The position numbers were made by a program, and so were the translations under genes. DNA of 64,000 bases. Source: Escherichia phage Eryne. Of the stretch, positions 44,404 through 44,475 are shown in pieces (the first letter of the stretch is position 1; each line of letters starts with the position of its first letter). The notes beneath the pieces are model-generated. The model worked only from the letters and a program-made list of their open reading frames with translations. It had not been told where the DNA came from and made no database searches. Location: the sequence record PQ529420. One strand, 5' to 3'.

Positions 44404-44475
44404 ATAGGTATGCGTATGATAATCATTCTCATTTGTAAATGAGAATCATTAGCAAATGAGAATTTTTCTCATTTA
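44404..44475. promoter_or_regulatory. operator-like palindrome cluster (Fur-box-like)
   Basis: TATGATAATCATTCTCATTT-gt-AAATGAGAATCATT inverted repeat plus two further AAATGAGAAT copies. Confidence 0.5.

What the first reader, a model, noticed from the sequence alone, without database searches (positions are those of the whole stretch)
44404..44475. Operator-like palindrome cluster AAATGAGAAT / ATTCTCATTT
A 10-bp inverted repeat separated by 2 bp (ATTCTCATTT-gt-AAATGAGAAT) is followed by two more copies of AAATGAGAAT and overlaps a Fur-core-like TATGATAATCATT. The same ATCATTCT half-site recurs at ~55520 and ~55580, so one DNA-binding protein may control both boundaries of the early region.
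Basis: seen in the sequence. Interest (0 to 1): 0.5.

Follow-up and report, generated by a model that had tools for sequence, protein, structure and literature searches.

The report
Host Fur-box arrays in lytic phage
The palindromes are a real, conserved array of binding sites for the host iron regulator Fur. They sit in the non-coding hubs and the terminal repeat of a phi92-like lytic coliphage, which suggests the phage ties part of its programme to the host's iron status.

Summary
Window 44409-44481 carries three 19-bp 9-1-9 palindromes, AATGA(G/T)AATCATTCTCATT, plus 6-bp-shifted overlapping copies. Each matches the E. coli Fur box at 13-15 of 19 positions.

The same motif occurs at 55512 and 55570. 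It also occurs at 56466 (17/19, a perfect 7-1-7 core) and 56661, both inside the homolog of the phi92 343-bp terminal repeat. It appears nowhere else in the window or in the whole phi92 genome beyond chance.

A weight matrix built only from phage boxes ranks the three classical Fur-controlled ent/fep promoter regions of E. coli K-12 as its top four hits. The phage encodes no Fur homolog.

In 14 phages of two subfamilies, the box nearest a conserved ~220-nt non-coding block is fixed in position. It lies between a -35-like TTGAAT (absent in the E. coli phages) and a -10-like nAGAAT.

My best reading is that host Fur-Fe2+ occupies these arrays and gates weak promoters of phage non-coding transcripts. 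Binding, the promoter and the RNA are all inferred, not shown.

Unrelated T5-like phages carry the same arrays in their long terminal repeat, near the injection-stop region.

The parts
44415..44433 (.). Fur box A1, TATGATAATCATTCTCATT. The 19-mer at 44412 scores 15/19 to the classical consensus. An overlapping weak site sits 6 bp upstream at 44409.
   Evidence: (PWM 26.2)
44438..44456 (.). Fur box A2, AATGAGAATCATTAGCAAA (15/19 at 44435).
   Evidence: I2; PWM 18.2
44455..44473 (.). Fur box A3, AATGAGAATTTTTCTCATT. This is the box nearest the conserved block, and its position is conserved in all 14 relatives examined.
   Evidence: PWM 23.6
44476..44481 (+). GAGAAT, a -10-like hexamer that could equally be an extra Fur half-site. 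Its GAAT is invariant across genera. In the Salmonella, Cronobacter and Erwinia phages examined, and most of the Klebsiella, Serratia and Enterobacter ones, it is CAGAAT lying 18 nt after a -35-like TTGAAT.
   Evidence: read directly from the sequence; function inferred
44482..44700 (+). Conserved non-coding block of about 220 nt, a candidate Fur-gated ncRNA. It runs GC-rich 5' part, AT-rich middle with 2x CTTTACA, the ultra-conserved CTACCGGCGATCnACCTTCC, then a hairpin.
   Evidence: conserved in 249 phage records. Indels break every reading frame. G-U pairs favour the + strand. Covariation is weak. No Rfam family matches. No E. coli homolog.
44659..44681 (+). Terminator-like hairpin followed by a weak U-tract (GTTTCCTCTTCT). 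Cross-genus conservation ends just after it.
44174..44394 (+). Three direct repeats of about 70 bp immediately upstream of the boxes. Each ends in TTGAA-N9-TTCAA. The phage alia record annotates this as repeat_region.
   Evidence: D1
55512..55530 (.). Fur box B1, AATGATAATCATTCTTATT, about 250 bp after the gp248 homolog.
   Evidence: (PWM 26.3)
55570..55588 (.). Fur box B2, AATGACAATCATTCTTAAC (15/19 at 55567).
   Evidence: PWM 19.4
56390..56732 (+). Homolog of the phi92 343-bp direct terminal repeat, i.e. the physical genome end collapsed in this assembly. It contains boxes C1 and C2.
   Evidence: 97.4% identity over 343 bp
56466..56484 (.). Fur box C1, AATGATAATCATTATCAGC. The 19-mer at 56463 scores 17/19, the 7-1-7 core TGATAATCATTATCA is perfect, and an overlapping site lies at 56460. 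It is followed directly by the -10-like TATCTT.
56661..56679 (.). Fur box C2, AATGATAATTATTCTCATT (0 mismatches to the phage palindrome). Overlapping sites lie at 56655 and 56652. It is followed by GATATTTGAGGGG, and 'GATATTTGGG' is conserved in Phapecoctavirus and a Klebsiella phage.
   Evidence: D1, D2; PWM 26.6
44706..44734 (-). Near-consensus sigma70-like promoter on the minus strand (TTGACA-17-TATACT). It overlaps the terminator hairpin of the minus-strand gene and would read antisense into the block. Its status is uncertain.
   Evidence: 11/12 match; conservation of the hexamers read
44737..45003 (-). Homolog of phi92 gp224 (88 aa, PHROG 19316, unknown function), convergent with the block. 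A minus-strand small gene occupies this position in most relatives.

Best explanation
The palindrome cluster is an array of canonical Fur boxes, each a 19-bp 9-1-9 inverted repeat, which is the unit bound by one Fur dimer. I propose that iron-loaded host Fur occupies these arrays on the phage DNA.

At cluster A, the box nearest the conserved block lies in the spacer of a weak sigma70-type promoter. That promoter has a -35-like TTGAAT in most genera, an 18-nt spacer, and a -10-like (C/G)AGAAT. It abuts a ~220-nt non-coding unit conserved across Stephanstirmvirinae and Vequintavirinae. Fur-Fe2+ would therefore shut that transcript off in iron-replete cells and release it in iron-starved cells, as happens at the host ryhB promoter.

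Boxes C1 and C2 head two paralogous ~200-bp units inside the terminal repeat. Boxes B1 and B2 lie after the last small gene. These would be gated in the same way.

What is shown: the motif, its restriction to three non-coding loci, its equivalence to the Fur motif, and its positional conservation. What is inferred: Fur binding, the promoter, the RNA, and the direction of regulation.
For: Match to the Fur motif. The sites score 15/19, 15/19 and 13/19 at cluster A, and 14, 15, 17 and 15 of 19 at the other sites. C1 has a perfect 7-1-7 core.

Enrichment and localisation. There are 5 sites at >=15/19 against 0.54 expected, all in the ORF-poor gaps. In the whole phi92 genome, the sites that match both the 19-bp consensus and its 7-1-7 core lie only in the terminal repeat, in the gp223-gp225 gap (5 boxes) and after gp248.

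Reciprocal test. A PWM from 26 phage boxes, scanned over E. coli K-12 605000-632000, puts its top four hits in the fepB-entC (two hits), fepD-entS and fepA-fes intergenic regions. The fifth hit scores far lower. The top hit agrees with the footprinted entC site listed by Chen et al. 2007, after allowing for a difference in genome versions.

Site architecture. The phage sites form 9-1-9 units and clusters shifted by 6 bp. That is the architecture described for E. coli Fur (PMC2189734).

No phage candidate. No Fur homolog was found in the phage, and the flanking proteins scanned showed no recognisable DNA-binding regulator.

Positional conservation. The proximal box, nnGAAT and GCAGG keep a fixed register next to the conserved block in 14 phages infecting Escherichia, Klebsiella, Salmonella, Cronobacter, Erwinia, Serratia and Enterobacter. 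Sequence further upstream diverges, apart from extra boxes.

Block boundaries. Conservation of the block starts at the box and stops after a hairpin with a U-rich tail. G-U pairs favour the + strand.

Terminal-repeat sites. The C boxes keep their position in a Phapecoctavirus (75 and 254 nt from the record start) and are present in a Klebsiella phage, with 'GATATTTGGG' conserved beside C2.

Independent lineage. Unrelated T5-like phages carry the same boxes. This argues for a shared host factor.
Against: No experiment shows Fur binding or any transcript.

The promoter is weak. In the E. coli phages the -35 position reads GCAAAT or GTAAAT. In two phages the -10-like hexamer lacks A at position 2 (CGGAAT, CTGAAT). 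The scanner did not call a + strand promoter there. The invariant GAAT could be another Fur half-site rather than a -10.

The RNA evidence is inconclusive. The minimum free energy is no better than shuffles on either strand (z = 1.3 and 0.2). Covariation is weak: 3 pairs with double changes, and 13-14 of 500 shuffles reach the observed score and percentage paired.

A strong-looking minus-strand promoter faces into the block.

Most phage boxes read GAGAAT/ATTCTC where the Fur consensus has GATAAT/ATTATC.

It is not obvious why a lytic phage should silence transcripts in iron-replete hosts.
Confidence: 0.5

Rival explanations
1. The arrays do recruit host Fur, but not to regulate phage promoters. 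One version is a decoy. With roughly 9-11 boxes per genome multiplied by replication, the arrays would titrate Fur and derepress host iron uptake and iron sparing. That would feed the phage's iron-dependent ribonucleotide reductases. The other version is an architectural or roadblock complex at genome ends and at boundaries between transcription units.
For: The boxes come in arrays whose copy number varies: 3 in the window, 5 in phi92, and 1-4 in other genera.

They sit at the 3' ends of operons and inside the terminal repeat.

T5-like phages have 4 or more boxes in ~35-bp tandem units in the non-coding LTR with no obvious downstream gene.

Multicopy Fur boxes are known to titrate Fur, as in the FURTA assay cited in PMC2189734.

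phi92 encodes NrdA, NrdB and NrdD/G homologs.
Against: A decoy does not need the fixed register between the proximal box and the conserved block, nor between C2 and GATATTTGGG.

Some genera keep a single box (SSE121, SNUABM01).

For T5, derepressing host genes seems pointless, because the host DNA is degraded early (my own knowledge; abstract listed).
Confidence: 0.25
2. The palindromes are operators for a phage-encoded dimeric DNA-binding protein whose specificity happens to resemble, or mimics, that of Fur.
For: Most boxes share a systematic departure from the Fur consensus, G/C at the +/-4 positions giving TGAGAAT...ATTCTCA (matrix).

The flank TCATTTAG/TCATTTAAG extends beyond the Fur unit and is shared with T5-like phages.

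Many small phage proteins of unknown function are available as candidates.
Against: No Fur-family gene was found in phi92 or the window. None of the flanking proteins scanned showed a recognisable DNA-binding regulator.

The motif is shared by two phage lineages that I take to be unrelated on taxonomy; gene content was not compared here.

The phage-derived matrix retrieves true Fur operators in E. coli, so host Fur would bind these sites anyway.
Confidence: 0.12
3. The whole 1.4-kb gap is a replication origin or a packaging-related cis element. It would comprise the iterons, palindromes, an AT-rich stretch and the conserved block. On this reading the resemblance of the palindromes to Fur boxes is incidental or secondary.
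For: Three ~70-bp direct repeats lie next to the palindromes. The block has an AT-rich core between GC-rich flanks.

Neither strand shows convincing RNA structure.

The other box sites lie in or next to the terminal repeat.

In T5-like phages the arrays neighbour DnaA-box repeats (10.1101/866236).
Against: No DnaA boxes occur in either gap of this phage.

GC skew turns at about 40 kb, at the divergent promoters rather than here.

A 17/19 match to the Fur consensus, a perfect 7-1-7 core and the reciprocal PWM result are hard to ascribe to coincidence.
Confidence: 0.08
4. The palindromes are a chance product of AT-rich composition.
For: The window is 36-41% GC. Weak 13-14/19 matches to the Fur consensus are scattered through coding DNA.
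Against: Strong sites are about tenfold enriched and confined to roughly 5% of the sequence. They are conserved in position across genera.
Confidence: 0.01

Closest known systems
E. coli Fur boxes / Fur-repressed promoters (e.g. entC, fepA-fes, ryhB, the aerobactin iucA operator)
   Same: The sites share the 19-bp palindromic motif and the 9-1-9 / 7-1-7 unit. They form overlapping sites shifted by 6 bp and arrays of several sites. The proximal site sits next to or over a -10-like hexamer. A phage-derived matrix finds the ent/fep operators.
   Different: These sites lie on a virulent phage genome, not next to iron-uptake genes. GAGAAT is preferred over GATAAT. The associated promoters look weak. 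Three separate loci are involved, including a terminal repeat. Binding is untested.
Fur boxes on temperate phages upstream of cargo genes (the sitABCD operon of lambdoid phages, PMC6969025; stx1, from my own knowledge)
   Same: A host Fur site is carried by a phage genome and would plug phage DNA into the Fur regulon.
   Different: Those are single sites controlling a host-benefit moron expressed from a prophage. Here there are arrays in the non-coding hubs of lytic phages, next to a conserved non-coding block and in the terminal repeat.
RyhB-type Fur-repressed small RNAs
   Same: The proposed layout is the same: a Fur box over the promoter, a short non-coding unit, then a terminal hairpin with a U-rich tail.
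   Different: There is no sequence or Rfam similarity. The unit is about 220 nt rather than about 90 nt. No E. coli homolog was found. Structure and expression are unproven, and no target was identified.
Repeat Region 3 / injection-stop region of the T5 long terminal repeat (palindromes palC-palJ, DRC repeats; Davison, bioRxiv 10.1101/866236)
   Same: A T5-like phage carries the same 19-bp palindromes in tandem units in a large non-coding part of a terminal repeat. One stretch is a 25-nt exact match to window 56655-56679. The array is conserved in 627 records.
   Different: The phage family is different, the repeat is 10 kb rather than 343 bp, and the neighbouring elements are DnaA-box inverted repeats and DRD repeats. 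The preprint leaves the palindromes unexplained and does not mention Fur or iron. My equation of its pal/DRC elements with these boxes rests on position, not on its figure.

Membership tests
Fur box (binding site of enterobacterial Fur) | Match to the 19-bp consensus GATAATGATAATCATTATC, or the 7-1-7 / 9-1-9 inverted repeat | tested here: met
   The seven sites score 13-17/19. C1 has the perfect 7-1-7 core TGATAATCATTATCA, and the phage consensus AATGA(G/T)AATCATTCTCATT is a 9-1-9 palindrome.
Fur box (binding site of enterobacterial Fur) | Sites occur in clusters, with overlapping sites offset by 6 bp | tested here: met
   Pairs offset by 6 bp occur at 44409/44415, 56460/56466, 56655/56661 and 56652/56658. 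This is the architecture described in PMC2189734.
Fur box (binding site of enterobacterial Fur) | The motif model recognises experimentally established Fur operators and little else | tested here: met
   The phage-only PWM places its top 4 hits in 27 kb of E. coli K-12 in fepB-entC (x2), fepD-entS and fepA-fes.
Fur box (binding site of enterobacterial Fur) | Statistical excess over composition, and restriction to regulatory (non-coding) DNA | tested here: met
Fur box (binding site of enterobacterial Fur) | Physical, metal-dependent binding by Fur (EMSA, footprint, ChIP, FURTA) | not testable with these tools
   No experimental data were found in the held literature.
Fur-repressed promoter (operator overlapping -35/-10) | A recognisable sigma70 promoter overlapped by the box | tested here: inconclusive
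   TTGAAT-18 nt-CAGAAT is present in Seunavirus, Mydovirus, Henunavirus and Serratia phages. The E. coli phages have a poor -35. Two phages lack A at position 2 of the -10-like hexamer. The scanner made no call on the + strand.
Fur-repressed promoter (operator overlapping -35/-10) | Iron- and fur-dependent transcript level | not testable with these tools
   No transcriptome of these phages was found.
Bacterial/phage small regulatory RNA gene | Conserved secondary structure supported by covariation | tested here: inconclusive
   There are 24 predicted pairs, 3 of them with double changes. 14 of 500 shuffles reach the covariation score. MFE z-scores are 1.3 (+ strand) and 0.2 (- strand).
Bacterial/phage small regulatory RNA gene | Intrinsic terminator at the 3' end | tested here: inconclusive
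   A hairpin lies at 44659-44681 with a weak U-tract, and conservation ends there.
Bacterial/phage small regulatory RNA gene | Membership of a described RNA family (Rfam) | tested here: not met
   No hit at E<=1 over 13 kb. The only hit at E<=10 over 321 nt is ohsC, at 16 bits against a 50-bit gathering score.
Phage repressor/operator module | A cognate DNA-binding protein encoded nearby or elsewhere in the phage | tested here: not met
   The neighbours of cluster A are an AAA ATPase, a CapR/T5orf172 endonuclease and a NADAR protein. Most other proteins scanned are of unknown function. tblastn found no Fur homolog. Small proteins of unknown function cannot be excluded.
Iteron/DnaA-type replication origin | DnaA boxes plus iterons plus an AT-rich unwinding element | tested here: not met
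   No DnaA box (TTWTNCACA) occurs in either gap. Direct repeats and an AT-rich stretch are present.

The most novel reading that the evidence does not exclude
Two apparently unrelated lineages of virulent enterobacterial phages have each fixed arrays of host Fur sites in their terminal repeats and non-coding hubs. The lineages are the phi92/rV5-like myoviruses and the T5-like siphoviruses. On this reading, Fur is a dedicated host factor of the infection cycle. It could set an iron-gated switch for phage non-coding RNAs. In T5 it could be part of the long-unexplained cis element at which first-step DNA transfer stops.
Probability: 0.25. Interest if true: 0.85.

Novelty: new variant of a known kind. 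Interest (0 to 1): 0.68.

Why it matters
Fur boxes are textbook elements. On phages they are known as single sites in front of prophage cargo genes.

Here they form conserved arrays in lytic phages, at the genome ends and beside a deeply conserved non-coding block. That would mean these phages read the host's iron status, or exploit its most abundant iron regulator. This matters for phage behaviour in the iron-poor gut and in infection sites, and for phage therapy, since phi92-like and rV5-like phages are broad-host-range candidates.

It also gives a concrete, testable identity to the 'bewildering' palindromes in the T5 injection-stop region. Infecting a delta-fur host and assaying first-step transfer would test it.

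None of the eight searches of the held literature returned a report of Fur boxes in virulent phage genomes.

Tried and rejected
tRNA and Rfam. No tRNA was found in the window. No Rfam family matches at either gap.

Small ORF across the GC-rich part of the block (minus strand, ATGGCGAGGGG...). I rejected it because 1-nt and other non-triplet indels between genera break the frame (and reading).

Thermodynamic stability of the block as RNA. It is no better than shuffles on either strand.

Covariation. The sequences are too conserved to decide.

Host origin of the block. No match in 5,426 E. coli genomes.

Antisense targets of the block within the window. Only scattered 10-13-mers turned up, nothing beyond chance.

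DnaA boxes in the gaps. None were found. Three loose IHF-pattern matches were not followed up.

Phage Fur homolog. None was found (using an E. coli Fur sequence written from memory).

Shared sequence between the T5-like region and the window. Only the boxes are shared.

IMG/VR scan for the perfect palindrome. The set was too heterogeneous to interpret and was not analysed.

Literature. No mention of Fur sites was found for phi92, rV5, Vequintavirinae or T5. The phi92 genome paper is not held.

Full report
**Where the finding sits**

The window is a phi92-like myovirus (Justusliebigvirus, Stephanstirmvirinae). It is 97-98.6% identical to phages ZYD, phi92, alia and others over 43900-45000.

The finding lies in a 1.45-kb ORF-poor gap, 43976-45455. 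The gap follows a + strand operon ending in a NADAR-domain gene (43424-43975). It precedes a run of small + strand genes that correspond to phi92 gp225-gp248.

A second ORF-poor gap spans 55265-56980. The phi92 direct terminal repeat (record positions 1-343) maps to 56390-56732 at 97.4% identity. This gap is therefore the physical genome end, collapsed in the assembly.

**Check of the observation**

ATTCTCATTT-gt-AAATGAGAAT is present at 44425-44446. Only one further exact AAATGAGAAT follows, at 44454, plus a 9/10 reverse copy at 44464-44473. So "two more copies" is slightly overstated. The total is 3 exact 10-mers against 0.38 expected.

The real unit is a 19-bp palindrome, AATGA(G/T)AAT-C-ATTCTCATT. 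The window has three units in cluster A, starting at 44415, 44438 and 44455.

With up to 3 mismatches the palindrome occurs 6 times against 0.51 expected, and 0 of 100 shuffles reach 6.

phi92 and alia carry 53 bp more in cluster A, holding two additional boxes. The deletion endpoints lie in the repeated AATGAGAATCATTA.

**Identity of the motif**

Against the classical Fur consensus GATAATGATAATCATTATC the sites score as follows:

| Start | Matches of 19 |
|---|---|
| 44412 | 15 |
| 44435 | 15 |
| 44452 | 13 |
| 55509 | 14 |
| 55567 | 15 |
| 56463 | 17 |
| 56658 | 15 |

C1 contains the perfect 7-1-7 core TGATAATCATTATCA. Five sites reach 15/19 against 0.54 expected in 300 dinucleotide shuffles. 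All five lie in the two gaps, which make up about 5% of the window.

In the complete phi92 genome, the sites that match both the 19-bp consensus and its 7-1-7 core lie only in three places. These are the terminal repeat (so twice per virion DNA), the gp223-gp225 gap (5 boxes), and the region after gp248. Overlapping copies shifted by 6 bp accompany the main sites. Chen et al. 2007 describe the same cluster architecture for E. coli Fur. They also define the dimer unit as 9-1-9 (PMC2189734).

I then ran a reciprocal test. A weight matrix built only from 26 phage boxes was scanned over E. coli K-12 positions 605000-632000. Its top four hits are 624840 and 624719 (fepB-entC), 622205 (fepD-entS) and 612657 (fepA-fes). 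These are the three classical Fur-controlled divergent promoters. The fifth hit scores much lower and is in coding DNA.

The top hit agrees with the footprinted entC site in Table 4 of Chen et al.. That agreement depends on a coordinate offset between genome versions, which I infer rather than verified.

tblastn found no Fur homolog in phi92 or the window. The proteins flanking cluster A are an AAA ATPase, a CapR/T5orf172 endonuclease and a NADAR protein. The motif is therefore, operationally, the host Fur box.

**What lies next to the boxes**

Downstream of cluster A is a ~220-nt block (about 44482-44700) that is conserved far beyond the genus:

- Phapecoctavirus: about 90% identity.
- Klebsiella, Salmonella, Cronobacter, Erwinia, Serratia, Enterobacter and Pantoea phages of Stephanstirmvirinae and Vequintavirinae: 70-88% identity.
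- Aeromonas phages: a 36-nt core.
- In total, 249 records match.

In 14 phages read in detail, the proximal box, the tetranucleotide GAAT and the start of the block (G/C)GCAGG keep a fixed register. Sequence further upstream diverges, apart from 0-4 additional boxes.

In most of the non-E. coli phages examined the module reads TTGAATGA(G/T)AATCATTCTCATTTGCAGAAT. That is a -35-like TTGAAT, an 18-nt spacer filled by the box, and a -10-like CAGAAT. In the E. coli phages the -35 position is poor (GCAAAT or GTAAAT) and the -10-like hexamer is GAGAAT.

Conservation ends after a hairpin (44659-44681) with a U-rich tail. Non-triplet indels exclude a conserved ORF.

G-U pairs in two predicted helices favour a + strand RNA. 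However, covariation is weak, and folding energy is not better than shuffles. No Rfam family matches. No E. coli homolog exists, and no antisense target was found in the window.

A near-consensus minus-strand promoter (44734-44706) faces into the block. It overlaps the terminator of the convergent gp224-like gene, and its role is open.

Boxes C1 and C2 head two paralogous ~200-bp units in the terminal repeat (families D1, D2, D14). Equivalent boxes sit 75 and 254 nt from the start of a Phapecoctavirus record and in a Klebsiella phage. "GATATTTGGG" is conserved beside C2.

**An unexpected parallel**

The search with the terminal-repeat region returned a 25-nt exact match to window 56655-56679 in T5-like siphoviruses. 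In AKFV33 a non-coding stretch at about 8.6-9.2 kb holds four strong boxes plus degenerate copies. A related record (MM-1) annotates the corresponding stretch as LTR. Three of the strong boxes lie in ~35-bp tandem units. The fourth is a perfect AATGAGAATCATTCTCATT about 300 bp from the tandem array in the same gap. DnaA-box-like sequences and TGTCGGATTTGCACAC repeats lie alongside.

The array is conserved in 627 phage records, usually twice per record. This is the region Davison describes as Repeat Region 3, the injection-stop region of T5. He treats its palindromes as unexplained, and the text does not mention Fur or iron (10.1101/866236). Only the boxes are shared with the window.

The same host-factor motif recurs in a second phage family that is taxonomically distant from the first. 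This argues against a lineage-specific phage protein and for host Fur.

**Mechanism**

Best-supported reading, confidence about 0.5 for the whole chain. Fur-Fe2+ dimers occupy the arrays. At cluster A and in the terminal repeat, the proximal box overlaps a weak promoter. Short non-coding transcripts are then made only when Fur is demetallated in iron-starved hosts, as at ryhB.

Fur binding alone I put at about 0.75-0.8. The promoter and RNA steps are inference.

Rivals:

- Fur recruitment for a non-transcriptional purpose, either titration of Fur or an end/boundary architecture or roadblock: 0.25.
- A phage protein with Fur-like specificity: 0.12.
- An origin or packaging element with incidental resemblance: 0.08. 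No DnaA boxes were found.
- Chance: 0.01.

**Comparison with what is known, and novelty**

Fur boxes, and Fur boxes on prophages in front of cargo genes, are known. An example is sitABCD on lambdoid phages (PMC6969025). Strong Fur sites at cryptic-prophage genes nohA and nohB are listed by Chen et al..

The motif-level defining features of a Fur box are met here. Binding and regulation could not be tested.

What appears new is the combination of three things:

- The sites form conserved arrays in virulent phages.
- They lie at terminal repeats and non-coding hubs.
- They sit beside a deeply conserved non-coding unit, and a second phage family shares them.

None of the eight searches of the held literature returned a report of this. 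The library is incomplete, and the phi92 genome paper is not held.

I class the finding as a new variant of a known kind, with interest 0.68.

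Noticed in passing
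L141 (Escherichia phage AKFV33 NC_017969, record ~8.6-9.2 kb) 2472-2660 and 2968-2986: T5-like siphoviruses carry an array of the same Fur-box palindromes in the non-coding part of their long terminal repeat, next to DnaA-box-like and TGTCGGATTTGCACAC repeats. This is the region of the T5 injection-stop signal. The array is conserved in 627 records, usually twice per genome. The T5 preprint read here leaves these palindromes unexplained.
   Followed up: partly
window 44174-44394: Three direct repeats of about 70 bp lie just upstream of the boxes. Each has AAATTATTTAAAGTTTTT and ends in the palindrome TTGAA-N9-TTCAA. They could be tandem weak promoters (TTTACA/TTGTAC ... GAAAAT) or iterons for an unknown protein. 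Other genera have different repeats at the same place (e.g. GAAAACGTATTTTTTCT in SSE121).
   Followed up: partly
window 56390-56732: The window spans the homolog of the phi92 343-bp direct terminal repeat, so the assembly is circularly collapsed across the physical genome ends. Three tandem ~200-255-bp units (starts 56206, 56461, 56656) each begin with a more or less degenerate box followed by a G-run.
   Followed up: partly
window 44436/44437 versus L002 (phi92) 3540-3592: The number of boxes varies between close relatives. This phage lacks 53 bp (two boxes) present in phi92 and alia. The deletion lies between repeated AATGAGAATCATTA, which suggests recombination or slippage within the array.
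   Followed up: yes
window 55600-55930: A very AT-rich stretch between the B boxes and the terminal repeat is full of short direct repeats. These include 3x TAATCATTTCATACAGTAA at 16-bp spacing (55880-55930), 2x TAACTATAATCTATC (55731, 55761) and 2x CCTATCTATTTAT (55833, 55859). Function unknown; it could be a candidate packaging or origin element.
   Followed up: no
window 55992-56137: A perfect 15-nt inverted repeat (GCTAATAATAACGCA / TGCGTTATTATTAGC) has arms 116 nt apart and encloses a second palindrome (56073-56113). It forms a large potential cruciform about 250 bp left of the terminal-repeat boundary.
   Followed up: no
window 44594-44630; L018 (Aeromonas phage 4L372D): The 20-nt core GCTACCGGCGATCAACCTTC of the conserved block is retained even in Aeromonas Plateaulakevirus phages. 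There no Fur-like box (>=14/19) precedes it.
   Followed up: partly
window 42230-43975: The genes just upstream of the gap encode a CapR-domain/T5orf172 endonuclease-like protein (397 aa) and a NADAR-domain protein (183 aa). In several relatives an HNH endonuclease occupies this position, which suggests a hot spot for mobile endonucleases.
   Followed up: no
window 47272-47370 (+): A weak Rfam match to RT-17 RNA scores 27.4 bits against a gathering score of 40.4 (E = 0.096). It is below threshold and probably chance.
   Followed up: no
IMG/VR loci L021-L140: At least 120 viral contigs contain an exact AATGA(G/T)AATCATT(A/C)TCATT, and the scan stopped at its limit. Several have two copies about 40 bp apart (L045, L071). 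Perfect Fur palindromes may therefore be common in viral contigs.
   Followed up: no
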